NCBI RefSeq assembly: GCF_027921745.1
Contig: NC_079238.1
Coordinates: 5,456,001 to 5,520,000, forward strand
DNA: 64,000 nt
Direction: 5' to 3'
Source of the DNA: Schizosaccharomyces osmophilus
Taxonomy: Eukaryota
Part shown: piece after piece, positions 2,138 through 64,000 of the stretch
Position numbering within the stretch: the first letter of the stretch is position 1
Layout: every line of letters begins with the position of its first letter
The notes under the pieces: generated by a model
The model's input: only the letters and a program-made list of their open reading frames with translations
Database searches by the model: none
Told to the model about the DNA's origin: nothing
Position numbers and translations under genes: made by a program

Positions 2138-2412
2138 AACTGTTATTGGTACAAAAGAGCATATTATATTTAGAGTAATGAAGTTAGCTTTGAAAGCGAC
2201 AGAAAGTCGAATTGCATATGACTGCTATCTCAAAGGGAATGAAATGTTCAGAATTCGATTGCTCTATCGGAATTGTATTTGTAAACTAATTGCATTGGAT
2301 CATCCTTCTACACTTTCTTACTTTTATGGGAACGATTTGTTAGATATTTTCAATAAGACTTTCTTAAACGAATGCAATTCAAAGAAATGAGTAAAAAGAA
2401 TAAATATTAAAC

Positions 2413-2991
2413 AAGGAAAAGTGCAAGAAGAGAAAAGCCTACAGAACTCTGAGTACCGATGTTGTCTTCAATCATACATAATAAGAACGATGCCTTCAGG
2501 CGTTCAACTGCATCGTTCTAACGGCTACTGGCCTTGTGATAGCCAGGCATTATTTATGTATAGTCTGAATATCGGAAAGATGTTTAATATTATACATGAT
2601 TGCAGTAATAACTTGTATAATGCAGAATTCCAAGAGTCTGAGGTAGATTTCAATACAAAAAACAAACGGAAATTCTTTCTGTTCGTGAACATTTATTAAC
2701 CACGGTGCGACCTGAGACTTTCCCGTCGATTCGATGCACTATTTCGATCTTGTATATCCTAAAGGGGTTCATTGTTATCTGAAAACTCGTAACGGGATTC
2801 TTGGGATGTAATAAAACCAACGTAATCAGAAAGCTTTCTTTTAAGAAACACTCGCGGCTCAGTCTCATCATAGTTACCACCGTATCCCTCTAGGTATGTT
2901 CTCAAATGGCTGGATTCAAACTATCAATGTCAGAAATAGCTTTAAATTGAGGCAGCCTAGCAGGACGTTCTTGCCCATTGGCAAAAGGAAT
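2413..2991. repeat. Segmental copy of the 41-43 kb locus (degenerate 5S plus 3' end of DUF1773-like pseudogene on the minus strand), without the LTR
   Basis: 2413-2575 is near-identical to 41312-41474; 2571-2991 is near-identical to the reverse complement of about 42625-43045. Confidence 0.93.
2436..2565 (-). pseudogene. Degenerate 5S rRNA copy
   Basis: AGCCTACAG..ATGTTGTCTT..CATA..AACGA.GCCTTCAGGCGTTCAACTGCA aligns with the 5S gene at 51525-51643; the 5' third is very diverged. Confidence 0.7.
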
Positions 2992-25696: not shown

Positions 25697-28116
25697 CCTT
25701 TACGCAAGGGTGGGCGATTTGTTCTTTGAGTTCTTTGAGTTCCTTGGGGTCCTTGGGGTCCTTGGAAAAAGTGTAAACAAAGCTTAAGTGGGGGATGTAG
25801 AAGGGACGTGTTGGCACGGATGTACTGATGTACTGATGTGGTGGCATGGCTTGGTATACTCAGAAAAGATATGCAAAGAAAGTGGTGGTCCATACAGGCC
25901 GCCATTTGCAAGGCAAGGAAACGATGAATGCCTCGTGTAAGATGTCCTGTACAAAATGACTCAAAGTTTTCTAATCGCACATAGTTGCTCAAGTGTATCA
26001 GTTTGGCAATGCTCTCTTGTCTTGCTGTAGGAAAGCCAAATTCATTGAAATATAGATCCTTATCAGCTGCTGCTGAAGATCTTTGTTCCCCATTGTAATC
26101 AACTAGTTCATTTCTACGGTTTAGAGGGCTCTATTTTGCTTTATCAAAGATGGGAAGCGTGAAATAAATATTCTCTGTTTCAGCATTCCGTTGATTTGGC
26201 ATTCGCCAGTTAGACGAACAAGAATAAGCAAAATTGCTTTTTTCCTTCTTTTATACAAGAAGTTCATCTAATAAATTGATAACGCAATCCATGCGAAAGA
26301 TTCCTAGCTTTACGGTTCGTAGAAAAATTCAATGTTTTGTCACTGCCAATGCTCGTTTGTAAAAGGACTAAAGGCTTTAGGCCTAACAAAATTCAGAAAG
26401 ACTGATATATTCTGCATCTCAATTTCAAAAGTATAGTAATATGATTGTCTAAAAAAAAGTAGGAAACAGCGCTTTTTTAAAACAAAAGTGTTGTAGGTAT
26501 TCAACAATCTCAGCTCTTGTTCATATAGCTGTTTAGCAATAAATCTCAGTATCGCGCTCTACATACAGAGAGGACTTGAGAAGTACTCTATCTTATTTTT
26601 TTCATTATCATTGTTTTAAGTTTAACAATCTGTTCATAAGCCTACATTACTGCCCCGCTAGTTTGGTATTTACTTATGGATTCCATTCGAGCCATTTCTT
26701 TGTTTCCTGAACGACTCTGAATAGTTTTTACAAATATTTTTCTTTATAGAGATAGAATATCTTGTGGGCTAGTTTCTCCTCTACCTCGAGATAAAAGAGT
26801 CCTATAAATTCTTGCTAATTTTGAGCGATGTGACTCAAATTATTCTTGGGGACTGCCCTTTAAATTCAACTACAAATAGTAGTGCCGGATAAGGGCCACC
26901 AGATGGAAAAGAGTAATAAATGGATTAGCAAAACAATTCTTAACTCGTTCTGAAACAAACCTAATTCTATCCATACTTATAAGGAAATCTCGAAGCAATA
27001 TCAAAAGCAACAGCAGCTGGAACACCCTGGTAATGTTAAAGCTTCTTCAATATGGGTATCCGTAATTTATTTCTAGGCTCACCATAATCCTCATTACTTC
27101 AAACCTCCTTTCTATGCACATTACTCATAAACTAGGCGAATTTTGTAAAAGGTGCTTCCTTTTCTTACTCTCATCGTTATTATTGACTACTATCTTTTCC
27201 TTTAGACTTTCGATTCCAGAAACAATACAAACGTAAGCACGATAGCTCGAATTCGAATATAATACACAATTTGCTTTTTAAAACGCTTGAAGTGACAGTG
27301 TGGTATTAGTAGTTTTTTGCAATAAATTACTTTGCATGATCGTCTAAACTTGTAGGACCAATGTCTCCTAAATTTTGCATCTCTATTTCTTGATCTCTTC
27401 CACAATGCTTAGCAGAAAAAGTTGCCAGAAGAGCATCATCCTCGTATATATTTCTGACGGATTTGCTCGTAAAAATGCGTTCCTTCTAGTTCACACTCAA
27501 AATCCAAGACGGAACAACACTAAAAATCCTTTGATAGTTTTGTTCTACTTTACATAAACAACAGTCGGACCTCTCCATACACAAAAGTAACTTCAACAGC
27601 GTCCAAGCTGTTACTTATAGATGCCCTGCAATCGCCTTACTTTTGATCGGTGGAGCTGCTTATCCCAAACTACAGAAAGGGTTCTTTCACTTTTTATCAT
27701 ATCATCAAGTCCAACCAGATAATTTTTATGACGTTGAAAGATAAACAAACAACTGGAATTTTAATATTTTTGTTTCTCGATAAAAAGCAATTGGTTAGTG
27801 GATTCGTTTTAAACTTAAAGCTACTGATTAAGGATTGCTATATATGGACCTATTTCTCGTAAGAAAATGCGTTTTCTGGCAGGACTTATACGATACGCTA
27901 CAATAAGACTTACAAGGCTATCATTTTGTGAAATATTGAAGAGTTTTTCTTCGATTTGCATTTTCCTCGGTGTAAACGCGCTTTTACTGTTCTAGCGAGC
28001 AATTTCCTCATTTTCTGATTTTAGTACCTATCCAATTGGGGGGTTGTCTAGTTCAAAGTTTATATCTTATCTTTTCTGTTTTCTGATTTATTATTTATAT
28101 TTTGTTAGCGTTTATT

Positions 28117-29676: not shown

Positions 29677-32579
29677 TGTTAGATCCAACACTTGATGTTG
29701 AAAGGAAAGAATTAAAAGTACATTGCATGATAGCGGGGTCTTTCTTTTTCAGTCAAATGTATTTTTACTTTTTTTTTTTTTTTTTTTTATGATCGATATG
29801 ACTAATTTATATATGCTTTTGAATTTTTCCTTTAATGAATGACTCAGAAAAGAAAAACAATAATAGTACTTTTATTGATTTTCGAGTGGAAACACTACTT
29901 TGGACCGAATCATCTACGGAGCGCGTTCTTAGGTGTTTGAGGTTGATAATTACAGCATTATTTATAGAAATTATAGAAAATCGTTCAAAAAGGAGAATAC
30001 AAAAATCATGTTCTAAAGAATATAAAGACTAAACCATTTAATATCCAGGTTTTTTATCGTATTTTTGATAATCCAAAAGACTGCAAACCTCAGATTTATT
30101 TCAAAAACAGCAAATGGTATAACTAGTGGCTTGATTCCAAAGTCCAATAACGAACTATTCAGCTCCAGTTTCATTGGATACTTATCTGCAAATTGGAATG
30201 AACGACAGGTACAAAATAGAGTTAAGAACATCAATTCCAGCCTTGGCGAAATATAACGGAGCACTTGAAGGATTCGTTTGCTATACAACTAAGGACTCAA
30301 CATAAAAAAGTGAGCTAACTGACTATAAGAAATAACTGGATAATGTAATTATAAATGGGACAATCTTTCCTTAAAAAAGGCATTGCTTCTCAAAAAAAAT
30401 ATCAGTTCTAGTAAAATATTTTAGCAAAAAGATCCCAACTTAAGGATTCTTTGCTCTATTTTTTCGCCTTTATTATAATAGCAACAAATGAACCAAAACA
30501 AACGGAAGAGTATGCATAGTAAATAAAATAAATTAAAGATTCTTTTTAGCGAAATCCCATCTCATCCTCCACTGAATATTTATCATGTTGGGATGCAATT
30601 TAATTACCGTTGTCCATGATCGTAACAAAAAAGAGACGTAACGTAGCTTTAATTTCTTCCCACCCTGCTGTTAAGTCACGAATCGATTTAAATTTTTGGA
30701 AAGCATGAATAGAAAAGTAAAATGTAAAAATGGCTGGCTGGCTCGTTCAAATTGTACTTGGGGCTTCCTTTTCATTGTATAAAAATACAAGTTCTTAAGA
30801 ATTGATCCTTATCAAGCTTCAATTCTTTTTGTATCTGTCGTTGAAAGATATAGAAAAGATGTGATCAAATAACCTCTTACACTCAAAAAAACCTTATGTA
30901 CTGCACTTGCACTTGCACTTGAACTTGTTTTCAAACATGATTGCACATTATCACTTCTACATAAACATCCATCTCATCTCGAAGCGATCATTGTACAAAA
31001 GAGGTATTATGATTTCGGCCGTTTCTTTGTCTTTGTTAACGAATGGATTTCATACCAGGAGGGTTGAGTGTGACTTGCTCAGCTCAACATAACAAAGAAA
31101 AGATGCGAAATCGTTTCTTTATTCTGATCATCAAAAGAAGTGACACATCTCTTTCATCGTCAATAGTATATGATGTACTTGTTTGAACTCTCAATCAAAA
31201 ACAAATGACTTGTAACAAAAGATCACCTATTGTGTGTTTTATAAGCCCTCAAGATGTCGCAAATTTAGGCTTTGTCTTACTCTCTTTGTTTGGAAACTGT
31301 GACGAAATATCATAATGAACAAAAAAAGTAAAAGTGGAGACGTTGTTTTCAAAATTTCTACTTAATGAACCCAATGGCTCTTAAATTTGGTAAATCCAAG
31401 GAACCATCTACCATACCATTGACACTTTCCAAGGTTTATCAAGGTTAATACAATGCGCATCTTTTTAATCAGTCTTTTTTTCACAGCTCTTTTGGGAATC
31501 GGTGTTGCCCATCCGTTGAATAACGGTGAAGTCGTTAAAAACACCACTTCGATTGCTGTTGCTACCCATGAAAGCTTTAAAACTATAACTTCTGTTGCTC
31601 CTCCAGTTTATTATACTGGCAAATCTTAAGAGAGAGAGTAGAATGCACTGTTTCCGATCTAATTCCAGACGGGATGCAATACAATTATTATTATTAACGA
31701 GATGATTCTGAAAGAATATTTATGACTTTTGTTAGAGTACTACTAGAGAGGACAGGAATAAACTGTTTTGCAACTATTGATTTATTATTTACTTTCAGCA
31801 ACACTGTGTAGCACTCGGTAGAAGGAACGAGACCATCAGACGCTTAAATTCAGCTATCAAACGACTACTAGCACTGTGACAGCCAACCGGTGAATTATAA
31901 ATACCTTCAATATTTGAAAAGATGCTAAATTTTATACGTTCATTGCAGTAATAAGCTATAGAATACAGAATTCAACAAGGCTCCGGCAAACTTCATTATA
32001 GAAAGCAAGCACAGATTCTTACTTGCTTTGTTAACATTTATAAGCCATAGCAAAGGTCCTCGTCCATCAATAAATGGGATTGGCTCTGTTTATAAAGTTT
32101 TCAGATCTCTTTGCCGAGGTTTTTGTTTACCTTGAATTCATTTCCGTCAATCTATTTTAATAACATGCACATTACCTCGAAAAACAAATTTAAAAAACCC
32201 AACTTTCTCCTTTAACCTCTACAGGGAAGCTATTTTGTCAGAAGAAAGTAAGCAACTCATCCCTCTATAACCTTATGTTGTTCCGTACAAATATTCTCCT
32301 ACCAAGTACTCCGTATTACAAATTGTAAACAAAGCAAAGTAACAAAACATGAAGCAATTCGAAACGAAAATTGTGCAACTTGAAGAAGAAATTTGTGATG
32401 TTCTTTTTTCTAATCAGTAGATAAGCGCATCTTTTTAGTGCTATATATTCCACCAGGCGACTCACTCAGCAGTAGAACACGCAGAGATCCTTGTAAACAA
32501 AAGGTACCGCTTAACTTGATCCTTCTTTTTGTTTCTTTCCTTTTTTTTGAACTTTCAATTTTCCTTTTTAGCAGACAAC

Positions 32580-40883: not shown

Positions 40884-41334
40884 ATGAATTCCAGCAAGCT
40901 GTTGGTGGTCGGTCGGCTCCAGAGTTGTATATAGAAATTTTTTTCGTCTTTTGTTTTTCTTGTCCTATTATATTATGTTATGCAGCAGAGATTAATCGTT
41001 TCGTACTTTTTACTTTTTATTTAATTCAGTTACTAAATGTGTAGAAGACGATATGTATGAGACGAAGAGTGAAAAACAGAATACAAAAAACTTGTCAGCA
41101 GTATGAAGAACTTTGAATTAATTCCAGCATCATTAGAACTTAAACCTTCATTTAATTGAAAATGCGGGTGATTGTAGTTATTGGTCAAGACACTTGTCAA
41201 ATTTGGTGGGTCGCCTATTTCTTTCATCAAGTCCTTTATGCATAATGAGCAGTACTTGTCCAAGGAGTGATATAGCTTCATTTTATTTGTGTGAACGGAA
41301 GAATATGAATTAAGGAAAAGTGCAAGAAGAGAAA

Positions 41335-41464
41335 AGCCTACAGAACTCTGAGTACCGATGTTGTCTTCTACCATACATAATAAGAACGAGGCCTTCAGGC
41401 GTTCAACTGCATCTTTCTAACGGCTATTGGCCTTGTGATAGCCAGGCACTATTTATGTATAGTC
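41335..41464 (-). pseudogene. Degenerate 5S rRNA copy
   Basis: AGCCTACAG..ATGTTGTCTTCTACCATA..AACGAGGCCTTCAGGCGTTCAACTGCA aligns to 51525 onward; weak similarity continues to TAGTC at 41464. Confidence 0.7.
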
Positions 41465-41474
41465 TGAATATCGG

Positions 41475-41869
41475 TGTCACAGGACGAATCTCACTTGTTA
41501 TGAGAATAAGTATTCAGTGGAAAAGATGTAAGTAATAACAATTCATAAAATTGTATGTTTGACTTTTAAATTGGATACTTTTGTACTATAGAAGAATAGT
41601 AACAGCTTCCAGGGATCTGATTCACTAAGTAAGTTGTATGAACAATTTTATTTAGCTAGATCAGTCAAATCTTCCAATCTGAAGATTTGAGCTTTCCATT
41701 AGAGGTATATATATCTTTCTAGGATTAGTCAGCTTCTATATAACCTTAGTTCTAGATTTATAAAATTTTCAATCGCAAAAATGAACATTTAGTTTTGTAA
41801 TAACGTATTTGATAATACAATACATTTATTGTATCAAGATATTAGTAATATCGTATACCAGTTATGACA
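41475..41869 (-). mobile_element. Solo LTR, inverted, 395 bp
   Basis: Reverse complement of 43046-43440 with no differences seen by eye; TG..CA ends. Confidence 0.96.
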
Positions 41870-42133
41870 AGTAATACCGGCACAGACCATACTTTCATTG
41901 CGTTAGGAGTCGTTAAACCCGTAACGCGGTTGACAGCATCCTTATTCCACCCTCTTCGACCAGCTTGACCGTACGCACGTAAACAACTTGATCGGTGCAC
42001 TCTACCTGATCAACAAACAAGAAAGCCAATCTTCTTATAATGAGTCTAATAAAAGTCGCTGCAAATCAATAATAATATTTTTTCCTTCAATTAGTCTTCA
42101 ATTCTTTTTTCGCTGCTTTGACCCTTTTGAAAA

Positions 42134-42857
42134 ATGAACCAAGATTTATTTGATAATCCATTTGGAATTGCTCCACCCTCTGATGATTCTTATACAGCGC
42201 TCTCAAAGTTTACAAATGAATTCGCAGAGGCGATTCCCCAAGATCGATTTGATTCATTCAGAAGTAAACTGGCGAGCCTTCATAAAGCAGTTACTTCTAA
42301 ACTAGAAGGAGGAGAGACATTTTCACAAGATTTCGAAGAATGTTTCAATTGTCTGATGAAAAGTCAAATGAAAAGATTAATAGTCTCAGAGAAGACATGA
42401 TCCAAGGACACAATAATCTCAGAGAAGACATGATCCAAGAGTCAGATACAAAGTTTGGCATCCTAGAAGGGCAGCTTGTGGTGTTAGAAAACAGTTTTCG
42501 AGTCAATACGGGTAATATTACCTGAAGTATTCGCCAAAATGAATTTAAGCTTAATAAGACAACAACTTTAGCACAGAGATCTGAAAACATTATACACAGA
42601 GTTATGGCTAATGATACGAAGCCAATTCCGTTTGCCAATGGGCAAGAACGTCCTGCTAGGCTGCCTCAATTTAAAGCTATTTCTGACATTGATAGTTTGA
42701 ATCCAGCCATTTGAGAACATACCTAGAGGGATACGGTGGTAACTATGATGAGACTGAGCCGCGAGTGTTTCTTAAAAGAAAGCTTTCTGATTACGTTGGT
42801 TTTATTACATCCCAAGAATCCCGTTACGAGTTTTCAGATAACAATGAACCCCTTTAG
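42134..42857 (+). pseudogene. Mug135/Tdk1-like (DUF1773-like) pseudogene
   Basis: Reconstructed MNQDLFDNPFGIAPP.../..LREDMIQ x2..NIT*...RSENIIHR...IPFANGQERPARLPQFKAISDIDSL/LRTYLEGYG...LKRKLSDYVGF* aligns with the 60613-61221 protein; two frameshifts and a stop at 42523. Confidence 0.85.
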
Positions 42858-43503
42858 GATATACAAGATCGAAATAGTGCATCGAGTCGACGGGAAAGTC
42901 TCAGGTCGCACCATGGTTAATAAATGTTCACAAACAGAAAGAATTTCCGTTTGTTTTTTGTATTGAAATCTACCTCAGACTCCTGGAATTCTGCATTATA
43001 CAAGTTATTACTGCAATCATGTATAATATTAAACATCTTTCCGATTGTCATAACTGGTATACGATATTACTAATATCTTGATACAATAAATGTATTGTAT
43101 TATCAAATACGTTATTACAAAACTAAATGTTCATTTTTGCGATTGAAAATTTTATAAATCTAGAACTAAGGTTATATAGAAGCTGACTAATCCTAGAAAG
43201 ATATATATACCTCTAATGGAAAGCTCAAATCTTCAGATTGGAAGATTTGACTGATCTAGCTAAATAAAATTGTTCATACAACTTACTTAGTGAATCAGAT
43301 CCCTGGAAGCTGTTACTATTCTTCTATAGTACAAAAGTATCCAATTTAAAAGTCAAACATACAATTTTATGAATTGTTATTACTTACATCTTTTCCACTG
43401 AATACTTATTCTCATAACAAGTGAGATTCGTCCTGTGACAATTTATCTTCCAATCTCAAAGTGGAAATAGTTTCGTTCAATTACAAATTAAACGAACATA
43501 AGT

Positions 43504-44370
43504 ATGGAAATGGATTCTGAAAATTCAGGAACTGGATTTTTCGTTAGTGCGGCGGATATGCAAAATCTCAAAGCGGAAATAAGCGATCAACTCAAAGTTA
43601 TATCTGAACAGATGGTTGCTGCAAATCAAGAAAAAATGGCCGAAAAATTAAGTCAAATGGAAATTGACGAAGATTACATCGCCGAAGAACCAATGGACCT
43701 AATTGAAAGTGTTGAGAACGCATATGGTAATAGGGCTGAAAAATACTTAAGACGAATTAATACGAGAGAACCAGAAGTTTATAATCCAGATAAGCATGAA
43801 TTAGATGATTTCTTGCGAGACTTGGAGACCATATACGAAATGGTACGTTTGGTGTTTCCTACTGACCAAGAAAAAATCATGTATCTTTATTCTAAATCCC
43901 AAAGTCATCAGAGACAACAGATAAGAGAAGTGGTAAAGAAACCCGGTCCAAATAGAACGTTCGATTTTGTATTCGAAAAAGTTTTTCGAAGCGGATCAAA
44001 CGATTCTTGGGTAGAGACTCTCCATGAACATCTGGACAAGGCTACTAATTCAGATTTCGATTTCGCAGAGTACAGAAAATGGCTTTTAAATTTGGACATG
44101 GAAACCAACATAAAGATCAGTGCATTCCTATGTCAAAAAATGCATAACCGAAATCAACTCTTAAAAAATAAATATGAAAAAGGAGATCCACAAAAAGCCA
44201 TGAGAGAAACAAATCGCCACGCACGGTATACACCACTTCCAAAACCAACGAAATATACACGCCAACAGTTCTCAACACCGAAACAGAAAGCTTGGAAACC
44301 AAATAAGCGCGAACAAACCAAGAACTGGGATGACTCCAAATATGGAGCGAAATCAAAACCAAGCGAATGA
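43504..44370 (+). CDS. gag: Retrotransposon Gag
   Basis: First ORF after the 5' LTR; EPEVY..LDDFLRDLE capsid-like segment; basic C-terminus; no CCHC knuckle. Confidence 0.85.
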   Translation: MEMDSENSGTGFFVSAADMQNLKAEISDQLKVISEQMVAANQEKMAEKLSQMEIDEDYIAEEPMDLIESVENAYGNRAEKYLRRINTREPEVYNPDKHELDDFLRDLETIYEMVRLVFPTDQEKIMYLYSKSQSHQRQQIREVVKKPGPNRTFDFVFEKVFRSGSNDSWVETLHEHLDKATNSDFDFAEYRKWLLNLDMETNIKISAFLCQKMHNRNQLLKNKYEKGDPQKAMRETNRHARYTPLPKPTKYTRQQFSTPKQKAWKPNKREQTKNWDDSKYGAKSKPSE

Positions 44371-47300
44371 CTAGATAAGGGAAACAAGTCTAGAAGAGAT
44401 GAAGTCGTCTCTATAAACAAAATCATTGCGGGAAATCCACAAAAACACTACGAAAAGCAATCTTCACAATATCAAGATGTCAAAATTGCAAACCTCAAGG
44501 TCAATGCATTGATAGATACTGGCGCCAACGTATCCATCTTGAGAGAAGACCTGGCTAAACAAATTACGCGTAAATTTAATAAAGAAAACCGAACGTTTCT
44601 AGGGATAACAAACGACAAACTTCAAGTTAAAGGAAATTTAACATTGCCAGTAGAAATTAATAAACGAAAATTTTACGAAACGTTTATAATTACTCCGACT
44701 TCAGAAAACGAAGTTCTCCTCGGATGGAGCATTCTGAAAAAATTGAAAAGTTTAGACTTTTTATATGGTAACAAGACAAAGGAAGAAAAGAATAACGACA
44801 AGGAAAATCCAAAAGTCGAAGATCTATTGAAATCATTCAACAAAGTGTTCACAGAAGTTGCAGACATTCCTTTACCCAGACACACAGATAGTGATTTAAA
44901 AATCGAACTTACAAACAAATTGCCAGATTACGCACCGAAACTAAGGCCATATACACAAAAAGAATCTGCGACAATAAAAGAAAACGTGCAAAAATTATTA
45001 AGTCAAGGCAAAATTCGCGAAAGCTCATCAAATTTTATGTGCGCTCCACTAGTTGTACCGAAAAAGGGAACAGATAAATATCGCATGGTTATAAACTATA
45101 AACCACTAAATGCAATCACCAAAAGAGACAATTACCCATTACCAAACTTTGAAGAAATTATAAATTGCCTAAGCGGAGCCAAAGTTTTCAGTACGATTGA
45201 TCTAAAAGAAGCATATCATTTACTTAGAATTCGAGAAGGTGATGAACAAAAGACAGCCTTCAAGACACCCTTTGGAGCATTTGAATACAAAGTAATGCCC
45301 TTCGGATTAACCAATGCGCCAGCAAATTTTCAAAGGTATATTAACAAAGTACTTTTACCATACCTTGGAATTTTTATTATCGTTTATTTGGACGATATTC
45401 TGATATTTTCTTCCTCAGAAAAAGAACACGAGGAACATTTACGAAAAGTATTGCAAAAGCTACAAGACGCAAATTTATACGCAAATCGAGAGAAATGTAC
45501 CTTTTTCCAAAAGAAAGTCAAATTCTTAGGTCATATCTTCTCCAACCAAGGACTTGAGATTGACCCAGAAAGAATTCAAGCTGTTACAAATTGGCCTGAA
45601 CCCAATACGTTGCGACGCCTACAATCTTTCTTAGGTTTTGTTAATTATTCCAGACGATTTATGCCGAATCTTTCAAAATTGGCACGACCGTTATATGATT
45701 TAACAAAAAAGAATGTCAAATACAAATGGACCGATCGTCATAAAGAAGCCTTTGTCAACATCAAGAAAGAACTAGAAAACGTTTCTATGTTAAAACACTA
45801 TGATCCAACAAAAGAAACTCGATTAGAAACTGACGCTTCCGACTTTGCCATAGGAGCCATCCTATCGCAAAAACAAGAAGACAACGTTTATCATCCAATA
45901 GCTTTCTATTCAGAAACATTCACAGATCGTCAATGCATTTGGCCAACATGGGAAAAAGAAGCCTATGCAATTATTGCTGCTCTCCGAAAATGGTATCATT
46001 TCTTAGCTCACACAGAAACACCATTTCAAATATTAACGGATCACAAGAATCTAACATCTATGTTTACAAAAATTCGCACAGATACTCGTTCCAAAATCAA
46101 TAGATGGGCAACAGAATTGGAACTATACAATTTCGAAATTCAATATCGACCTGGCCGAAAGAATGAACCAGCAGACGCAATCTCACGTCGCCCAGATTAT
46201 AAAATCACTGCCATCAATCAACTAAGTGAAGCAAATTATCTAACAAATGTTTTCGATTACGTTCGCAAAGAATACTCCAATCATAAAAATTTTCAAAGAA
46301 TCCTAAATGGAGACAACGACAATCCGCAATATACAATTATAAACGGCCTCATCATTAATGATAAAAGACAAATTATCATCCCAACAGTTCCACAACTAGT
46401 TCAGTTGATATGTTATCAATTCCATGATCATCCTATTTCAGGAGGACATCGAGGAAAACTGTCCACAACAAATCGCATTCGCGAAAAGTTTTATTGGCAA
46501 GGCATGACAAGCGATATCCAAAAGTATGTTAAAAATTGTGATATATGTCAGCACAGTAAAACTCGAAATCATCAACGCTATGGTCAATTACAACCACTGC
46601 CCATTGCAGAAAAACCGTTTCAACATTATTCTATGGATTTTATCGTTGGATTACCAGTATCTCAAGGTAAAGATGCCATCTTAACAATTGTTGATCGTTT
46701 CACCAAAATGGCTTGGTTTCTTCCTTGTAATACAACCACGACCGCAGAACAACTGATCGCAATGTTCGAATCTCACATCGTAGCTGTATACGGCAAACCA
46801 AGAGACATAGTTTCCGATCGAGGACCTGTATTCATTTCTGATAAATGGAAACAATACCTCAAAGATCATAATGTAACACTCAAATTATCTTCTGGATATC
46901 ATCCACAAACGAATGGACAAACTGAACGTGTTAACCAAATAGTAGAAACATATTTACGATGCTATATGCATGACAACTTGGAAAATTGGGCCGCTTATTT
47001 GACAAAAGCACAATTATGTTATAACTCTGCTGAACATAGCGCTACCAAAGTAAGCCCTATAAAGGCCGCATTTGGTATACAACCTATACTAACAGAATGG
47101 GATTTGCAATTGATAAACGATCTCGGTACATCATTTTTATCCTCACAAACAGAACCTGTTCACGAGATCAGAAACCACATACGAAAAGCAAATGAACGTT
47201 ATGCAAAATTATATAATCGCAAGACAGAGATACCGCCGATATTCAAATCCGGTGACCAAGTACTCATTAAGAATGGTAAAGTGGGATTCTTTCATCAAAA

Positions 47301-47658
47301 CAACAAACTGGAACCAACGTTTGTCGGACCATTCGAAATAAAAAAGAAAGTTGCAGAACACAATTATACTTTAAATTTTCCTCGTGAAATACGAAGACGA
47401 TACCCTGCATCATTTCATGTGTCTGAACTCGAACCATACAACGCAGACTCACATGCAAACAACTTTCTAGCAAATATAACTATCGACCGTATATTAGACG
47501 TCGACAACAACCAAAAGCCTTCGCTTTATTACTGTTTATACCATACGAAACTGTCAAACGACTACCTTCGTTCAGTCACTTGGATCCCCACTCACATTGT
47601 TCAACAGAAAGCAGATGCAAAACTCGTTGAATTTAACCACAGCGCTTCATCTCGATAG
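44371..47658 (+). CDS. pol: Retrotransposon Pol (PR-RT-RH-IN plus chromodomain-like tail), in frame with gag
   Basis: DTGA protease, YLDD RT, TDASD RNase H, HHCC and D,D,E integrase, GPF motif; the frame is open directly after the gag TGA. Confidence 0.96.
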   Translation, partial: LDKGNKSRRDEVVSINKIIAGNPQKHYEKQSSQYQDVKIANLKVNALIDTGANVSILREDLAKQITRKFNKENRTFLGITNDKLQVKGNLTLPVEINKRKFYETFIITPTSENEVLLGWSILKKLKSLDFLYGNKTKEEKNNDKENPKVEDLLKSFNKVFTEVADIPLPRHTDSDLKIELTNKLPDYAPKLRPYTQKESATIKENVQKLLSQGKIRESSSNFMCAPLVVPKKGTDKYRMVINYKPLNAITKRDNYPLPNFEEIINCLSGAKVFSTIDLKEAYHLLRIREGDEQKTAFKTPFGAFEYKVMPFGLTNAPANFQRYINKVLLPYLGIFIIVYLDDILIFSSSEKEHEEHLRKVLQKLQDANLYANREKCTFFQKKVKFLGHIFSNQGLEIDPERIQAVTNWPEPNTLRRLQSFLGFVNYSRRFMPNLSKLARPLYDLTKKNVKYKWTDRHKEAFVNIKKELENVSMLKHYDPTKETRLETDASDFAIGAILSQKQEDNVYHPIAFYSETFTDRQCIWPTWEKEAYAIIAALRKWYHFLAHTETPFQILTDHKNLTSMFTKIRTDTRSKINRWATELELYNFEIQYRPGRKNEPADAISRRPDYKITAINQLSEANYLTNVFDYVRKEYSNHKNFQRILNGDNDNPQYTIINGLIINDKRQIIIPTVPQLVQLICYQFHDHPISGGHRGKLSTTNRIREKFYWQGMTSDIQKYVKNCDICQHSKTRNHQRYGQLQPLPIAEKPFQHYSMDFIVGLPVSQGKDAILTIVDRFTKMAWFLPCNTTTTAEQLIAMFESHIVAVYGKPRDIVSDRGPVFISDKWKQYLKDHNVTLKLSSGYHPQTNGQTERVNQIVETYLRCYMHDNLENWAAYLTKAQLCYNSAEHSATKVSPIKAAFGIQPILTEWDLQLINDLGTSFLSSQTEPVHEIRNHIRKANERYAKLYNRKTEIPPIFKSGDQVLIKNGKVGFFHQNNKLEPTFVGPFEIKKKVAEHNYTLNFPREIRRRYPASFHVSELEPYNADSHANNFLANITIDRILDVDNNQKPSLYYCLYHTKLSNDYLRSVTWIPTHIVQQKADAKLVEFNHSASSR

Positions 47659-48176
47659 AACCGCAAGGAATACAAGATCTTTCAATTCAAGGAAGTGAAA
47701 GCGTCTTAAGAAGGGAGGTGTCATAACTGGTATACGATATTACTAATATCTTGATACAATAAATGTATTGTATTATCAAATACGTTATTACAAAACTAAA
47801 TGTTCATTTTTGCGATTGAAAATTTTATAAATCTAGAACTAAGGTTATATAGAAGCTGACTAATCCTAGAAAGATATATATACCTCTAATGGAAAGCTCA
47901 AATCTTCAGATTGGAAGATTTGACTGATCTAGCTAAATAAAATTGTTCATACAACTTACTTAGTGAATCAGATCCCTGGAAGCTGTTACTATTCTTCTAT
48001 AGTACAAAAGTATCCAATTTAAAAGTCAAACATACAATTTTATGAATTGTTATTACTTACATCTTTTCCACTGAATACTTATTCTCATAACAAGTGAGAT
48101 TCGTCCTGTGACACTGTGACATTACTCAATTGCTAATAATATAATCGTAACTGTTCTCTGATAATATTGTATCATG

Positions 48177-48187
48177 GTAAACAAACA
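48177..48187 (+). promoter_or_regulatory. FLEX (Mei4 forkhead) consensus
   Basis: Exact GTAAACAAACA. Confidence 0.5.
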
Positions 48188-48431
48188 AATCAATCAATTT
48201 CTGGAACGTTGAAATTATATATTACCTGCAAGAGAAAAAATCAAAAATAATTTAGTCGCTAATGTAAAAAAAAACGAATTCCATTCTTTTGCATGGGTCA
48301 TTGCACTCCCTATCCAATGAAATAGATTAGCCATAAGGATACTACTAACCTGTATCAGAAAAAATAAGAAATTTTAATATGTATGTTTCAACTGATTGAC
48401 AAGACGTGTGAGTGAGGAAAAAAAGTGGTAA

Positions 48432-48555
48432 AACCTACGGCACCCCGGATCCCCATGTTGTCTCCAACCATACTAGGAAAGAGTGAGGTCCTCAGACGCT
48501 TAATTGCAGTGATCGAACGGAAATGGGTCTTTTTTTTCTAAGTGTCGCCGTAGAC
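48432..48555 (-). pseudogene. Diverged 5S rRNA copy
   Basis: ACCTACGGCACCCCGGATCCCCATGTTGTCTCCAACCATA...CTCAGACGCTTAATTGCAGTGATCG...GCCGTAGAC; many substitutions and indels relative to 51525-51643. Confidence 0.9.
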
Positions 48556-49292
48556 GCTTGTTTCTTTCGTAAGAGCAACAAAAGCAATTTGTCTTGCTGT
48601 AGTTTTGTCTTTAAAGTTGTGTGTTGGCCTGGTGTCCTTTAAGATACAATTCTACTCAGCTCTGTCTGTGTGTTTTGTCACGGCTGAATAGAGAATGCTT
48701 CCATATTGTAAGAATAAGATTTAAAAACACACTGTTTTCCTCTTTTCTATTGATTCACATTGTGGTCACAGAAGCATTAGATTGAGTGTATGAGTTTATG
48801 GGTTGAAAATGTTATTTATATAAATCGGTTCTACTTTAATATTTTTCATGATCCGTTGATTTGACTCTCTATATAAACAGGAAATTAAATTTATTAAGCT
48901 ACATCTGTCGAATCTTTTAATCTGAAGATTTGTGCTTTCTACGCTGTGAATCAATTTTACCTCTGGCGATAATCACTTTCGTCCTTGCCATTTATGAATT
49001 ACATGCGGAAAGTACGAAGTTCATTACGGCAGAATTTTCGTCGGAATAAATAAATAATCATTAAAAAGGGTGTTCTATTCACGAAGAAAATGAACGATGC
49101 GTAAGCAACAATGCTGTGAAACAAAATAGAAAATTCATAAAAGAGTGAATGAGTAAAGAAAACAAAGTCTTCCGGATTCATCAGATGCTTGGTTTTGTGA
49201 ACACGAATACAGGAACTTGGTAGACTGCAATTGACGTGGATACTTCCAAAGAAGGAGCGAAATATAAAGAATGAAAGCAGGTTCGGTAAAAC

Positions 49293-50443
49293 TTAAACTT
49301 CAGCGCTTTGCTCAGAAAGATGCTGGAGTTCGATTTGTTCGTTCTGAGGTACTTGCTCTCCTCGATTTGTATCTTTAAAATAGGTTAATTAAAGCCCTAA
49401 CGATAGCAAGCATTTACGAAGTGTACATACCTAAAATACGATCCACAGCGTTTCCTATACCATTTCCTATGCCGTTTCCTATTCCGTTTACGCCGACGCC
49501 TATTCCGTTTCTCAGATCGACGAGAACTAATCTTAATAGTTCGCGCGCATTTGCATTCACTAGAACAGTTAGAATATTTCGCGGGTGTATGACATACTCG
49601 TCAATAAAAGAAACAAGACAAAGTTAACAAAACAAACAGCATAGAAAAAATTATTGTTTATCTTTTCAAATCCTGTAAACTTCTTTGCAGCATAATACAC
49701 GGTGAAACCGAGGACATCGAGAAAACACACACATAATACTGAGATACACATAGCTGACAATACGTTTTTGGTTGCTCTTCCAGCTTGCGTGAGCCCTTGT
49801 TTGGCCTGCGGGAACCATTCTTTAGGCATTTGAGTCATTGCTAAGAATTAATAAATCTTTCAAAATAAAAGACAGCGCTAACTTACCAAACAAAAACAAT
49901 GCAAAGGATGCTACACAGCCAGCAGAAAGCCCCCAAAGGGGTTTCGCACTCACAGAAGCCTTAAAACCAAAAAATAACACAAGAAGAATAGCATAGGCCA
50001 CAATATACCCAATAGTTATAGGCAACAAGATGCCTGCTAAGACTTTCTGGCAAAGCACCACATCCCAACCAGAATTATTAGCGGAATTCTGAGCGGATCC
50101 ATCAGCCATTTCTAAATCGATAAACTTGTTTGAAGCTAATGGATGTATTAGTAAATAGTTCGTTGTTTGTGAAAAGATAGAGGTGTCTATTATGTTTGCT
50201 GACAGTTATCGACAAGGTTATTAGTTTCAAACCCGACAAATAAAAAACAAGCATGATTCTTCCATCATGAGCCGTTCCAACAAGAACACAAAGAATTAAC
50301 ATGTCTATTTTAATTCAACAAATCTTACCTGAATACGGAGGAGGCGTACCATTTGAAGGAGACGACTGACTATCTGCCTTTTCATCATTGAGCGTTTTGG
50401 AAGAGTCATCAGAATCTGAAATAGGAGAGTATTTGTTTTTCAT
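49293..50443 (-). CDS. wtf: wtf poison-antidote meiotic driver family protein, 5 exons, 263 aa
   Basis: Exons 50443-50329, 50111-49887, 49840-49598, 49559-49431 and 49372-49293 splice in frame (792 nt). MKNKY start, PPPYS motif in exon 1, TM segments, (IGNG)n repeat, C-terminal ..SAEV*. Confidence 0.92.
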
Positions 50444-50917
50444 ATTTACAATGGCAATTAGAGCTCAAAATGATGCCGATAGTTACAGTCTAAACGAAAT
50501 CAACTTTTGAATCGCCGAGAAAAGTCCGTAAGAACTGGCTCCAATTTTCACAGATCTTTCAAAAATAGGAATTGGACCTTGCTTCAACCATCAAAAGCAA
50601 AAGCAAACTTTGTTTTGCAAGATTAGTTTGCTTTAAAACCAAAGATACGATTTTGAAAAAATCTTGGTAGTGGCTTTTCGCATGTCTCAATCACAAAGGC
50701 AGCGACATTATGTCACTGACTGGTCACAGTCCTCATTGCGATTTTTTCGTTATAGTATAATCCAAAAGAGTCGTCGTTTATTACAAAATGTAAACATAGA
50801 ACCAGCGTTAGAAAAAACAGTGCTAATCAGTTTGAATGATATTCAAACAGGATTGGACTTTGCTTTTTTTGAAATCCACCCAGTTGCATTTGCAATACTA
50901 ATGCTCTAGGCTTCAGG

Positions 50918-51400
50918 ATGCCGTCGGAAAGAAACGACTTGACGACTGATACTGTATCCCGTTAAACACTATGCCAGCAGAGCCTGAAAACCAGTTCAAC
51001 GGTCGTAGTGACAATACTTTCAAACAACTGTCCTCTGAACATACCTCTGAACATACTGAGCAATCTCCAGGGTTACGCCAGGAACCGGGTCAGTCTAGGG
51101 ATGTTGAAAGCGGTGGGAGTTGATTTATGCGGAAAGTAAAGCAATGTTTGTTCTTTTCGTTTTTTCTCCAGCATGCTTATGTTTATATTTCGGTTATTTC
51201 TTTCCTGCATATTTATTAAAATGCTTTTTGCATGACTGATGCTCCTGTATGGCGGGCGTTTTCTTGATTCACTTCATCTCTTCGACATTGAATAAGTAAG
51301 GGTGCTTATCACTGGATGGTATTGTCATTGTACCTGCGTAGTGTGGTTCATTTGCTTGTTGTTATTTATTCATTTATAGCTTTTTATTATTGAAGCAAGA
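50918..51400 (+). pseudogene. Possible decayed small membrane-protein gene divergent from wtf (wag-like position)
   Basis: Hydrophilic ORF MPAEPENQ...DVESGGS* at 50971-51123, followed by broken hydrophobic frames; lies between wtf and 5S. Confidence 0.35.
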
Positions 51401-51524
51401 GTAATCATTGCATTTTCCGCATCCACTAGTATTAATTAGTCCATGCCGACTAAAACGGCAACCATATGTTTCCAATAAAAAGAGCAACAGAAAAAGAAGC
51501 AAAAAGTAAAATAAAAAAGTGAAA

Positions 51525-51643
51525 AGCCTACAGCATCCCGGATTCCCATGTTGTCTCCAACCATAGTACTAACGAGACCCTCAGACGCTTAACTGCAGTG
51601 ATCGGACGGGAACTGGTGTTTTCGCCTAGGTGTGGCCGTAGAC
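51525..51643 (-). rRNA. 5S rRNA gene
   Basis: 119 nt GTCTACGGCCACACCTAGGCG...GCTGTAGGCT followed by a T run; near the fission yeast 5S sequence as I recall it. Confidence 0.95.
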
Positions 51644-52511: not shown

Positions 52512-53503
52512 ATGAAAGTAATAGAATTACCTTCTATTGATCTATCTGAGCAAAATACAAAACTTCTCAGTACATTAATAATTGATGCTTGTCAAGAATG
52601 GGGATTTTTCACATTAAAAAACCATGGGATAAAATTGGAAGACGTGCAAGTACTCTTCAAAGAGAGCGATGAATTCTTCAAGTTACCCACAGAGGAAAAG
52701 GAACATTATGTGTTTCAAGGAAATGACTTGCCGTCAGGATATTCAAGACATACTAAACATTCGCATTCAGAAGATTCTTTTTCTAGAGCTATAAAGGAGT
52801 ATTATGATATAGCAAGGTTCCCTAATCCAGATATTGAAAAAATTAGCCCGGCCATCCGTAAGCGTTTACCTGAGCTAAAGATGTTTTTTAAACAGTGTCA
52901 TATTCTTTCGTTAAAAATTCTTGATTTAATTGCTCTTGGATTTGGGCTTTCACAGGATTTCTTCAGCAAATACCATAGTTCCGCTGAGGACTTTCTTCGC
53001 TTCATAAAGTACATGGTTCCTGAGGGAAAGGAACACACAGAGGACGATGTGGATAACGATAGTCATTTCGATTATGGTACTATCACATTATTGTTTCAAA
53101 GAGAATATGGAATTCTACAGATTCAACCTCCAGAATCTGACGCTACGGCTGATTGGGTTCGAGTCTCCGTCGATAAAGAGGTGATTTCGTAAGTAAAGTC
53201 TCAATTGTTCGCTTCATTTCTTTCTTTTTCTGTTACTCGTAAAAACAAAGTAAATTTACTGACAATACCTTTAGAGTCAATGTTGCAGATACGTTACAAT
53301 TCTGGACCGGTGAAAGGATAAAAAGTAGCATTCACCAAATAAGAATTGATCCAAGAATAAGAGAACGACAATTAATCGCTTTTTTTGCTATACCTGATTT
53401 GGATTGTCCTATATCTAAAGTTTCTGATGAAGAAGATGGAAAAAACGCAAAGACAATGACAATGCGTGAATATAGGAGAAGGAAGATGGCATGTTTACCA
53501 TAG
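52512..53503 (+). CDS. 2-oxoglutarate/Fe(II) dioxygenase paralog, 1 intron
   Basis: Colinear with the 12814 gene with the same intron position (53189-53274); HFD...H metal ligands retained. Confidence 0.85.
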
Positions 53504-60612: not shown

Positions 60613-61221
60613 TTAGTTGAACCCAGAGAAGTGATGACTAAGATCGTAGACGCTGATTAAACCAAGGGCATCACGAAGTCTTTCTTTCATTTTTATCGAC
60701 TCGTTGAAATTGAAGCGGATTCCGTACCCATCTAAGTAGCGAGCGCACTGGTCCCTTGTTAAGCCATCAATGTCTTTAACAGATCTAATTTCTGGCAAAT
60801 CATCATCTGGCTGAGTCCCACCTAGAAAAGGAACGATATTTATAGGAAATCCCATTGATCTTAACTGGATATTTTCCGTTTTTGTATTTCTCATATCCAT
60901 TCTGTTAAATCTCGTTTCCATTCTGTTAAATCTCGTTTCCATTCTGTTAAATCTCGTTTCCATTCTTGAGGGGAATGCATTCTCATCGGTCAGCCAATTC
61001 TGAAACCACCGCGGTGGTTGATCTTCAGCAACCTCTTCTGCTCGTCTTAATTGATTAGCAACATTTTGAATAACTTGGATTCGATGAATCATGCCAACTT
61101 CATTTTGAAGTTGCGAGCTTTTCATAGCAAATTCTAATTCTTTTAAAAACCGATTTACGTCTAAAAAAGTATCATTCTGTGGAGGAGAGATGTCGAAATC
61201 GTTCGCATAGATATTTTCCAT
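60613..61221 (-). CDS. Mug135/Tdk1/Mug2-like (DUF1773-like) coiled-coil protein
   Basis: PPRWFQ, (RMETRFN)x3 heptads, and C-terminal IVPFLGG.QP...LPEIRSVKDIDGLT...CARYLDGYGI...KERLRDALG recalled as the family's C-terminal domain. Confidence 0.8.
   Translation of the reverse strand: MENIYANDFDISPPQNDTFLDVNRFLKELEFAMKSSQLQNEVGMIHRIQVIQNVANQLRRAEEVAEDQPPRWFQNWLTDENAFPSRMETRFNRMETRFNRMETRFNRMDMRNTKTENIQLRSMGFPINIVPFLGGTQPDDDLPEIRSVKDIDGLTRDQCARYLDGYGIRFNFNESIKMKERLRDALGLISVYDLSHHFSGFN
60896..60966. repeat. 21-bp tandem repeat, about 3.3 copies, encoding heptads
   Basis: Unit TCCATTCTGTTAAATCTCGTT repeated exactly. Confidence 0.95.
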
Positions 61222-62340
61222 TTTAAGAAATTGGTAAAGGTTATGTACAATAGATATGCTGCTAAAATATAAACAAAGCTGTGTTATTTTTGAATTGTGG
61301 TGGTGCCACTCGTTAAACGCTTCGAGTGCACTTCCAAATAGAAAAATTCTCGTAATAATATTTCAACGATGGAATAAATTATAACACTAAACAAAAATTA
61401 CGCAATTATTGGTTTCCTTCGTTACAGATGTTAACAAGCATTAGCAATGAGAGTGTGAGTGGAATACAGTTGTAAAGGTTTAAATTGTCAAGTTGAATAC
61501 TCTAAATTAAGTTACTACATATCTGGAGTGATATATCTTTAGTACAAGTTTATTGGCTCTGCCAGAAAAATCTTCCTAACTGAAGATTTTGTCTGAGAAT
61601 CCCGCTTAGGGCCATTTCTACCAGTGGGGCAGGTATATCAGACTTTGGCAATGGTTCGGTACTTGGGAATTGGTAGTAAAAAAAGGTATTATGAAATAAA
61701 ACCGATTTTGGTATGTATTCTTTTCTTCCTATACATTTATCGCACTAAGCATAATTGTTTCTGAATTTCGTTTGCGAAACCCCAATCTTTGAAAACTCAT
61801 TCTTGACAACTCTGTCCTTTAACTATATGATTAGATTAGCCCAGGTCCTCTAACATAAATTTAAAAGTTCATTATAACACAACCTTGAGTCTTGCTAACA
61901 AGAAGAATAGCAACTACCGTTAAGCTTTTTCGTTTTATTCACATGTTCAACAAGCGATTTCTTCCAGGGAAACTCATATGCACTTTTAACCTGATGCCTA
62001 TCTCAAATCAGATGTAAGAAGGACTTCTTTCAAGTTCTTATTCTTTTTCTATTTTATGTAGTCAAAGCAAACAACTGCGCAGATCGAACAAAAGCACTTA
62101 CTATAACGTTGAAAAAGATGCAACAAAGCCTGTGGTAAAACATTAAGTCTTGCAAAAATCTGTATTCTCCAAAAAGTAAGGTTGAAAAAAAAAAAAGAAA
62201 GAAAACAAGTTTCAGAGTCTCTCATATCCATTCATTAATTTCTGGGCCACTACCGTTCATTTTATTTTTATTTATTTATTCTTTTTTTTTGGTTCTTTAA
62301 TAATTTTTGATACTGTTTATTATAGATTTTGGGAAATTTC

Positions 62341-63960
62341 ATGATCCAGAAGAACAACTACATCACCTCTTCCTGAAACATTGAATTTGCTCTACTCAAA
62401 TTCCTACCGGCACCACTTTTCAGGTCACTTCAAACTCAACACCGAAACCCAAACCAAGAATAATCATAATGGAAGCCTCTCTACTCCTAATGCTCGTATA
62501 ATACCAAACTTAATTTGGATAGGAGTTTCGTTATTTCTAAACGTATTTCTCTCTGGTTTTGATGGGACAGGTACAGCTTCTGCTTATACTACGATCGGTG
62601 AAGAATTTCACGCTGCAAATTTAGCGTCATGGATTACCACTTCGTATTTAATTACTAGTACTACATTTCAGCCTTTATACGGATTGATACGGATCGTTTT
62701 CAGACATTATAGGAAGGTGAGTATGTTAATATATGGCATCGGGACTGTTTAGTCTTGGTTATCTATGGTGCTACTTTGCTATTGGGATCTTTTTTTTTAA
62801 TAATTGCAAGAAGTTTTTTATGGGAATTGGGGGAGGAGGATTGATCACACTGTACACATTCATCGACTCGGATATCATTCCAACAAGGAAACGAGGGCTG
62901 TTCCAAGCATTTCAAAATCTATTGTTATGATTTGGTGCCATTTGTGGAACGTCTTTTGAAGGTGTACTTTGTGAAGCATTTAGTTGGGGAGTTGTTTTCT
63001 CATCCAAGTTCCTTTTTCACTTTCAAGTTTTGCTGTAGGGTATTTTTTTTGTACAAAATTAAGCTTGTTATACAAGGCTTCACAATATCGAATTCTTTTG
63101 ATATATCAGGAGGATACTTTTGGTTTCTGGGTTGACGGCATTGTTATTGGTTTATCTTTTGGTGGTACAAAATCCATTCAAACATGTGAACCCTCTAAAT
63201 TTTCATATTATTGGGAGTGTTGTGTATATCTGCATTCATATATGTAGAATTTACAACGAAAGCGGCGCCAATTATTCCATTAAAATCGCTTCAAGGGTTA
63301 TACAGTACCCTTGTTTTAACGATTGGGGGTTTCACTGGATTAGCAGGATATGCTTATTTATTTACACTCGCTTTATTTTTTCAACTAGTACAAGGGGATA
63401 GTCTTTCCAAAGCCGGACTTTGTCTTGCTTTACCTTCCTTGTCTACAGCTATAGGAGGATTGATTTCTGGTAATCTCATGCATCAACATGTTCGCGTGGG
63501 AGCACCTACTTTTTTGGGGAGTACTTCTCATGGCTTTAGGATATGTCCTTAGTTTGTTTATATATCCTGGCATATCACCAATACTACTGGGTCTATTTTT
63601 GATTCCAGCCAACATTGGGCAAGGTATAGGATTTTCAAGCTCCTTCTTTTCGTTCATTTTTTCTGCGTTTCCTCAAAATTCACATGCTCCATCTACATCA
63701 ACGCTTTATTTGATTAGAAGCATTGGTTCATTGTTTGACGTAGGCGTATTATCAGCCATCATTCAATCGACTCTTAGGAAAAGAGTATTCACTGAATTAT
63801 CAGATTTTACTGATCTCAATGAAAACCAGATTCGAGAGGTTCTTCTTTATATGATTTACCAGAGGATATTCAGAAGATTGTATTAGGTGATTATACTTTT
63901 GCCATTCGAAATGCACAGAGTTTACGATGATTTGCTGCATAATAGCCCTTATCTTATGTA
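62341..63960 (+). pseudogene. Fnx/Vba-like vacuolar MFS (DHA2) pseudogene
   Basis: Fragments FLSGFDGT, ASWITTSYLITSTTFQPLYG, GIGGGGL..DSDIIPTRKRGLFQ and LIRSIGSLF are spread over at least 5 frame segments. Confidence 0.85.
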
Positions 63961-64000
63961 TTTTGAAGGACGTGATAAAACCAAATACACATTCCGGATT

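What the first reader, a model, noticed from the sequence alone, without database searches (positions are those of the whole stretch)
41312..51643. Candidate 5S-rDNA-flanked meiotic-driver array: a Tdk1/Mug135-like gene in tandem with wtf
Seen: three minus-strand 5S copies (41335, 48432, 51525) of increasing intactness. Removing the retroelements and re-inverting 41870-43045 gives a same-strand array: degenerate 5S, DUF1773-like gene, degenerate 5S, wtf, 5S. Established: wtf drivers in the S. octosporus clade are linked to dispersed 5S rDNA, and S. pombe tdk1 (mug135) is a single-gene killer meiotic driver. Inference: a second, unrelated driver family may spread using the same 5S-flanked cassette, making 5S copies a shared platform for selfish elements. 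I do not know of a description of this for the Tdk1-like family.
Basis: partly seen in the sequence, partly recalled or inferred. Interest (0 to 1): 0.88.

Follow-up and report, generated by a model that had tools for sequence, protein, structure and literature searches.

The report
Two killer-gene families share 5S docks
In the fission yeast Schizosaccharomyces osmophilus a broken copy of the tdk offspring-killer gene sits in line with a wtf spore-killer gene between scattered 5S rRNA gene copies, and published gene tables show 6 of 15 tdk genes next to a same-strand 5S gene, so this second selfish family likely spread by recombination at 5S sites as wtf does.

Summary
The anatomy is confirmed. 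Three identical LTRs and two swapped target-site duplications show that 41870-43045 was inverted; an uninterrupted copy at 2403-2991 proves the old junction. Undone, the order is 5S, wag, wtf, degenerate 5S, tdk, 5S remnant, with 5S, wtf and tdk on one strand. Both genes are already catalogued (tdk307*, a pseudogene; wtf20), and the tdk family is described (PMC12930445), but that preprint's text never mentions 5S. Crossing published S. osmophilus tables, 6 of 15 tdk genes lie within 1.5 kb of an annotated 5S, all same strand (0.49 expected; 5 of 78 control genes), including 4 of the 5 non-subtelomeric ones; three more loci repeat 5S-wtf-5S-tdk. The scan's index held no earlier tdk finding.

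The parts
41335..41464 (-). 5S rDNA remnant, about 70% identical to the intact copy; box-C region 17 of 20
   Evidence: not detected by Rfam
41470..41474 (.). target-site duplication 1 (ATCGG), 6-10 bases upstream of the remnant's inferred 5' end; its partner is now at 43041-43045 inverted
41475..41869 (-). Tosmo LTR, identical to the two LTRs of the full-length element
41870..43045 (.). segment inverted by recombination between opposite LTRs
   Evidence: swapped TSDs and uninterrupted copy at 2403-2991
42134..42920 (+). tdk (Mug135/DUF1773) pseudogene, published as tdk307*; frameshifts near 42331 and 42710, stops at 42523 and 42855
43046..48113 (+). full-length Ty3/Gypsy retrotransposon of the Tosmo type; gag 43504-44370, GAA TGA CT read-through site, pol open to 47658; probably Tosmo3-1 (inferred)
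48122..48126 (.). target-site duplication 2 (TTACT), after an 8-base repeat of the LTR end at 48114-48121
48177..48187 (+). exact FLEX (Mei4) 11-mer GTAAACAAACA, about 320 bases upstream of the tdk start before the insertions, now cut off from it
   Evidence: 3 such 11-mers in the window, so weak
48432..48555 (-). degenerate 5S rDNA (98 of 119 positions; box-C region 20 of 20), about 570 bases upstream of the tdk start before the insertions
48887..48939 (-). old LTR fragment, 85% identical over 53 bases
49293..50443 (-). wtf gene, five exons, open frame, PPPY motif in exon 1, in-frame ATG at the start of exon 2; published as wtf20
50444..51524 (+). interval holding the wag gene reported for the syntenic allele; exon structure not worked out here
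   Evidence: wag10, opposite strand; small annotated ORF at 50971-51123
51525..51643 (-). intact 5S rRNA gene
2403..2991 (-). recent partial copy: tdk 3' end (98.8%) plus flank plus 5S remnant (94.8%), uninterrupted; published as tdk306*
31819..32143 (-). old copy of the same tdk 3' flank-5S junction, about 70% identical, not in the published tdk list
60613..61221 (-). intact tdk gene of another clade (tdk308) with no 5S trace nearby: counter-example

Best explanation
The locus is a decayed same-strand row of 5S, wtf, degenerate 5S, tdk pseudogene and 5S remnant, cut and inverted by two Tosmo insertions, and it is one case of a genome-wide link between tdk genes and dispersed 5S genes that likely arose because tdk copies, like wtf copies, land at 5S sites by ectopic recombination. 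Shown: anatomy, inversion, gene identities, enrichment of tdk beside same-strand 5S in published S. osmophilus tables. Inferred: (1) tdk copies reached 5S sites more than once, since 5S-linked members fall in at least two clades and on either side of the 5S; (2) the mechanism is 5S-homology-guided gene conversion or circle integration as proposed for wtf; (3) once a tdk-5S junction decays it is copied on as a passenger by ordinary subtelomeric exchange; (4) the docks are not reserved for selfish genes, drivers are simply the fastest-duplicating users. This copy cannot drive.
For: 6 of 15 tdk loci within 1.5 kb of one of 102 annotated 5S genes, 6 of 6 on the same strand; random placement gives 0.49 (0 of 5000 reach 6), local shifts of +-100 kb give 1.23 (4 of 5000). 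Control: 5 of 78 neighbouring subtelomeric genes, 2 same strand, Fisher p 0.002. 4 of the 5 tdk loci outside the terminal 5% of a chromosome have a 5S 0.5-1.3 kb upstream. tdk304, tdk305 and tdk310* each follow 5S-wtf-5S on the same strand, as here. tdk302 and tdk303 are 5S-linked with no annotated wtf within 100 kb. The window adds three tdk-5S-remnant junctions that the published 5S list lacks. tdk302, tdk313 and tdk307* form one clade, 100/99 support, while tdk303 is placed in clade D by the preprint. 5S-mediated gain and loss of wtf is published for this species.
Against: 9 of 15 tdk loci have no annotated 5S within 1.5 kb; intact tdk308 has no remnant either. Only tdk304 has annotated 5S on both sides within 2.5 kb. 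The recent copies do not end in 5S: the 2403-2991 block runs about 33 bases past the remnant, and doubled contig depth over the promoter stops about 120 bases short of the upstream 5S (depth is only a hint). tdk genes are about as enriched near wtf (7 of 15 within 7 kb) as near 5S. One species, 15 loci at 12 sites, distance cut-offs chosen after seeing the data, control genes from one chromosome end only. No empty-site comparison across species could be made.
Confidence: 0.6

Rival explanations
1. Hitchhiking: tdk became linked to a wtf-5S block once or twice and was copied along with it; tdk itself does not use 5S homology.
For: Four loci share the order 5S-wtf-5S-tdk, three with 494-574 bases between 5S and the tdk start; 7 of 15 tdk within 7 kb of a wtf against 0.66 expected; in the dated duplications the 5S remnant is a passenger.
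Against: tdk302, tdk303 and tdk306* are 5S-linked without an annotated wtf nearby; the wtf at this locus is listed as lineage-specific with a lone 5S at the S. cryophilus site, whose neighbouring gene numbers are tdk pieces, which suggests that 5S-tdk came first (not verified on DNA); tdk307* is nearly identical to tdk312*, which has no wtf within 12 kb.
Confidence: 0.2
2. Selected driver stacking: tdk copies next to wtf are kept because tightly linked, mutually incompatible killers drive as one haplotype, whereas unlinked ones destroy most progeny.
For: Only double carriers survive crosses with unlinked incompatible tdk drivers; tdk-wtf proximity holds against local shuffles at 7 kb (9 of 5000).
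Against: tdk302, 304, 305, 309 and 313 showed no drive in S. pombe assays; the poison of the allele syntenic with this wtf was not toxic in budding yeast; tdk307* shares a frameshift with tdk312*, so it was broken before the last copying; at 2.5 kb the wtf link is not significant against local shuffles (287 of 5000).
Confidence: 0.12
3. Co-location only: tdk, wtf and 5S all accumulate in subtelomeres and other tolerant regions, and the excess is small-number chance.
For: 10 of 15 tdk loci are in the terminal 5%; other multicopy genes (hsp16, a GST-like gene) also lie within 1.5 kb of 5S there.
Against: The excess survives local shifts down to +-25 kb (37 of 5000), is strongest in interior loci (4 of 5) and is strand-biased (6 of 6, p 0.016).
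Confidence: 0.08

Closest known systems
wtf (and wag) genes at dispersed 5S rDNA in S. octosporus, S. osmophilus, S. cryophilus (PMC9562144)
   Same: Same-strand linkage to dispersed 5S genes, degenerate flanking copies, same species; the wtf-wag-5S unit in this window is itself one of the published cases.
   Different: wtf: 30 of 33 within 1.5 kb and usually flanked on both sides; tdk: 6 of 15, mostly one side. Empty-site evidence exists for wtf, not yet for tdk. tdk is an unrelated single-protein, post-germination killer.
tdk killer meiotic driver family (PMC12930445, PMC11551393, PMC11551426)
   Same: PF08593 domain, PP motif in the C-terminal domain region of relatives, internal heptad repeats, high pseudogene rate; this gene is listed as tdk307*.
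   Different: Those papers' text reports subtelomeric enrichment and one wag neighbour but no 5S link; this copy is broken and has no tested activity.
Five-S-associated repeats (FSARs) carrying hsp16 in S. cryophilus centromeres (PMC6538654)
   Same: Protein-coding cargo amplified between 5S copies.
   Different: Centromeric tandem arrays, cargo not known to be selfish; shows that 5S docks are not specific to drivers.
Dox-like genes in 359-bp satellite islands of Drosophila (review PMC12941216)
   Same: Driver family spreading through dispersed repeats by ectopic exchange.
   Different: Satellite DNA, one driver family per repeat; here two unrelated families share one functional-gene repeat.
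Tj1 retrotransposon of S. japonicus (PMC4600332)
   Same: Related Ty3/Gypsy element; one insertion here lies 10 bases upstream of a 5S remnant, in the same orientation, as Tj1 does at Pol III genes.
   Different: One event, uncertain 5' end, and the second insertion is not at a Pol III gene.

Membership tests
tdk family | C-terminal PF08593/IPR013902 domain | tested here: met
   profile 10-46 and 47-80 across a frameshift, each piece under the curated cut-off; whole-length match to tdk302 E 1.4e-67
tdk family | N-terminal region plus helical repeat stalk homologous to intact members | tested here: met
   86% over the first 66 residues to tdk302; two REDMIQ repeats; clade support 100/99
tdk family | intact open reading frame | tested here: not met
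   two frameshifts and two internal stops; published as pseudogene
tdk family | post-germination killing of non-carriers | not testable with these tools
   needs crosses; five S. osmophilus relatives were inactive in S. pombe
wtf drivers | five-exon gene with PY motif in exon 1 and in-frame ATG in exon 2 | tested here: met
   coordinates agree with published wtf20. No Pfam match on three single exons
wtf drivers | FLEX motif in intron 1 | tested here: not met
   no exact 11-mer in 50112-50328; none of 31 intact S. osmophilus wtf genes has a confident one
wtf drivers | toxic poison isoform | not testable with these tools
   the syntenic allele's poison was not toxic in S. cerevisiae
5S-flanked mobile cassette (wtf type) | same-strand 5S direct repeats on both sides of the cargo | tested here: met
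   at this locus after undoing the insertions; genome-wide only 1 of 15 tdk has annotated 5S on both sides within 2.5 kb
5S-flanked mobile cassette (wtf type) | family-wide enrichment beside 5S | tested here: met
   6 of 15 against 0.49 expected and 5 of 78 controls; one species
5S-flanked mobile cassette (wtf type) | duplication boundaries inside the 5S copies | tested here: not met
   for the two recent duplications that could be seen, ends lie about 33 and about 120 bases outside 5S; later gene conversion could hide older ends
5S-flanked mobile cassette (wtf type) | syntenic empty site with a single 5S in a sister lineage | not testable with these tools
   no fission-yeast genome DNA was available

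The most novel reading that the evidence does not exclude
Dispersed 5S genes are shared docks where two unrelated killer families, wtf and tdk, are stacked head to tail into linked multi-driver haplotypes, selected because incompatible killers spare only double carriers; decayed 5S copies that keep box C go on acting as Pol III factor sites that attract both recombination and Tosmo insertions.
Probability: 0.2. Interest if true: 0.8.

Novelty: new variant of a known kind. Interest (0 to 1): 0.55.

Why it matters
How killer meiotic drivers outlive fixation and decay is an open question, and moving to fresh loci is a leading answer. The tdk family paper explains persistence by functional divergence and gives no route of spread. 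A 5S link supplies one, shows that the route found for wtf is reused by an unrelated driver, and predicts where new tdk copies and tdk-wtf double loci will be found. It can be tested at once with the existing telomere-to-telomere assemblies. The locus itself is a fossil.

Tried and rejected
No genome was held for the window, so the genome-wide test rests on published coordinates. Rfam did not see the 41335 remnant. A homolog search with the middle piece of tdk307* found nothing. Two metagenome scans, with the tdk302-clade alignment and with a yeast homolog, gave no locus. No RNA holder was listed; runs X6 and X7 gave 0 and 1 contig, not used. Contig depths are hints, not copy numbers. First guess that the window is S. 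cryophilus with Tcry1 was dropped when S. osmophilus tables fitted. The transposon and full wtf tables of PMC10085805 lie beyond the cut of the held file, so the name Tosmo3-1 is inferred and 8 of 41 wtf loci are missing from my counts. Twenty chromosome-3 rows were entered but not used in the control. The protein atlas did not answer. No fold or complex was predicted: the gene is broken and family membership was clear.
Full report
Observation. The three 5S-derived sequences are there. Rfam scores 51525-51643 at 103.8 bits and 48432-48555 at 38.0 bits. The copy at 41335-41464 is invisible to Rfam but aligns to the intact gene at 68% over 96 bases and scores E 3.3e-12 with a profile built only from the other two copies, against a best E of 5.9 on the reversed window. 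The retroelement anatomy is exact: three identical 395-base LTRs, the left one inverted, and the two 5-base target duplications (ATCGG, TTACT) each split across the 41870-43045 segment in reverse complement. A second copy of the region at 2403-2991 has the 5S-remnant-to-tdk junction uninterrupted, letter for letter as the reconstruction predicts, and a contig of run X1 also joins 41474 to the far end of the segment on opposite strands. Before the insertions the order on the minus strand was intact 5S, (wag on the other strand), wtf, degenerate 5S, about 570 bases, tdk, about 135 bases, 5S remnant.

What the genes are. The gene at 42134-42920 matches PF08593 in two pieces over a frameshift and tdk302 over its whole length. 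It has two frameshifts and two internal stops. Lengths, strands and spacings of three tdk loci, one wtf and one 5S in the window agree with published S. osmophilus tables, which name them tdk306*, tdk307*, tdk308 and wtf20. The wtf splices to an open five-exon frame. For the syntenic allele in another strain the literature lists a wag gene, 5S on both sides, no FLEX motif and a lineage-specific locus, and its poison did not inhibit budding yeast. tdk307* is almost identical to tdk312* on another chromosome (66 of 66 N-terminal residues) and both end at the same frameshift, so the last copying or conversion moved an already broken gene. An exact FLEX 11-mer lay about 320 bases upstream of the start and is now separated from it; three such 11-mers occur in the window, so this is weak.

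Family-wide test. No genome was available, so I crossed two published tables on one assembly: 15 tdk loci and 102 annotated 5S genes. Six of 15 lie within 1.5 kb of a 5S, 7 within 2.5 kb, 8 within 3.5 kb; the six nearest are all on the same strand, five with the 5S upstream. Random placement gives 0.49 (0 of 5000 draws reach 6); shifting each gene locally by up to 100, 50 or 25 kb gives 1.23, 1.56, 2.00 (4, 8, 37 of 5000). Of 78 other annotated genes in the first 206 kb of chromosome 1, 5 are that close and 2 are on the same strand (Fisher p 0.002). Four of the five tdk loci outside the terminal 5% are 5S-adjacent. tdk304, tdk305 and tdk310* each directly follow a 5S-wtf-5S unit on the same strand, the layout seen here. 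The published 5S list holds only 1 of the 5 5S-derived sequences in this window, so tdk306* and tdk307* count as misses above although both touch a remnant; controls are undercounted in the same way. For comparison 30 of 33 listed wtf genes are within 1.5 kb (8 of 41 wtf loci were not in the table I could read). The cut-offs were chosen after seeing the distances, and the 15 loci form 12 sites.

Results against the reading. Nine of 15 have no annotated 5S near; intact tdk308 in this window has no remnant. Only tdk304 has annotated 5S on both sides. The duplications that can be dated do not end in 5S: the 2403-2991 block extends about 33 bases past the remnant, and in runs X1 and X2 (one sample) contig depth is about double over 48121-48313 but single over the degenerate 5S (a hint only). 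There the remnant is cargo, not target; an older copy at 31819-32143 (about 70% identical) shows that the junction is old. tdk is also enriched near wtf, 7 of 15 within 7 kb against 0.66, so the two links cannot be fully separated, though tdk302, 303 and 306* are 5S-linked without an annotated wtf. Five S. osmophilus tdk genes tested in S. pombe, four of them within 1.5 kb of a 5S, did not drive. Non-selfish hsp16 genes are amplified in 5S-associated repeats of S. cryophilus.

Mechanism. Most likely tdk copies arrived at 5S sites more than once by ectopic gene conversion or circle integration, the models published for wtf; 5S-linked members belong to at least two clades and lie on either side of the 5S. 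Junctions then decay and are shuffled among subtelomeres. Here a wtf-wag unit probably entered the 5S upstream of a resident tdk (one search lists a lone 5S at the S. cryophilus site; tdk pieces carry the next gene numbers; not verified on DNA), tdk was lost as a functional gene, two Tosmo insertions followed and recombined. These steps are inferred except for the inversion.

Literature. The tdk family preprint PMC12930445 (read: abstract, all Results, Discussion, figure legends, Supplementary Data 1, one part of Data 2; term searches) has no occurrence of '5S rDNA', '5S rRNA' or 'rDNA' in its text nor of '5S r', 'rRNA', 'rDNA' in its seven supplementary files; its figures, including the synteny maps, were not visible and could show 5S. 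PMC11551393 and PMC11551426 (passages) have no '5S r'. PMC9562144 (abstract, five sections, part of the supplement legend, rows of Supplementary file 1) has no 'mug135' or 'DUF1773'. PMC10085805 (abstract, three sections, passages, Table S5, parts of Table S4) has neither term. PMC6538654, PMC4600332, PMC11497594, PMC12941216 and 10.64898/2026.01.24.701316 were seen as passages. Library searches for tdk + 5S rDNA + Schizosaccharomyces gave one paper, with unrelated mentions, and mug135 + 5S rRNA gave none. The library lacks most subscription papers.

Verdict. A real, well-reconstructed fossil locus of two known families, pointing to a statistically supported and apparently unreported tdk-5S association in one species. 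New variant of a known kind; interest 0.55.

Noticed in passing
window 41464-41475: The left LTR ends 10 bases upstream of the inferred 5' end of the 5S remnant and in the same orientation, as Tj1 inserts at Pol III genes; the remnant keeps 17 of 20 box-C-region bases. It may still bind Pol III factors. One event only.
   Followed up: partly
window 43046-48113: Full-length Tosmo element without a flanking target duplication; the inversion explains this, and it is probably the published Tosmo3-1.
   Followed up: partly
window 26732-26941 (-): Further unlisted tdk remnant (N-terminal part), hit by 7 of 24 relatives at E 1.5e-6 to 6.6e-4; no 5S trace near it.
   Followed up: partly
window 31819-32143 (-): Unlisted old tdk 3'-flank plus truncated 5S remnant, about 70% identical to the other copies.
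   Followed up: yes
window 60613-61221 (-): Intact tdk308 is 86-88% identical to S. cryophilus SPOG_01635 and SPOG_03615 and lies 3.9 kb downstream of wtf21, whose orthogroup holds S. cryophilus wtf1; possible shared or transferred tdk-wtf locus.
   Followed up: partly
window 12814-13759 and 52512-53475: Two paralogous 2-oxoglutarate/Fe(II)-oxygenase-like genes (label recalled from sequence motifs), 67% identical in DNA.
   Followed up: no
window 62270-63990 (+): Transporter-like reading frames broken into several short pieces, probably a pseudogene.
   Followed up: no
window 42105-42331: Run X7, labelled as another organism, holds a 256-base contig about 99% identical to the tdk307* 5' part; single low-depth contig, unexplained.
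   Followed up: no
window 48114-48121: Eight bases of the LTR end are repeated in tandem before the target duplication; an 8-base tandem duplication in the 3' LTR is also reported for Tcry1-1.
   Followed up: no
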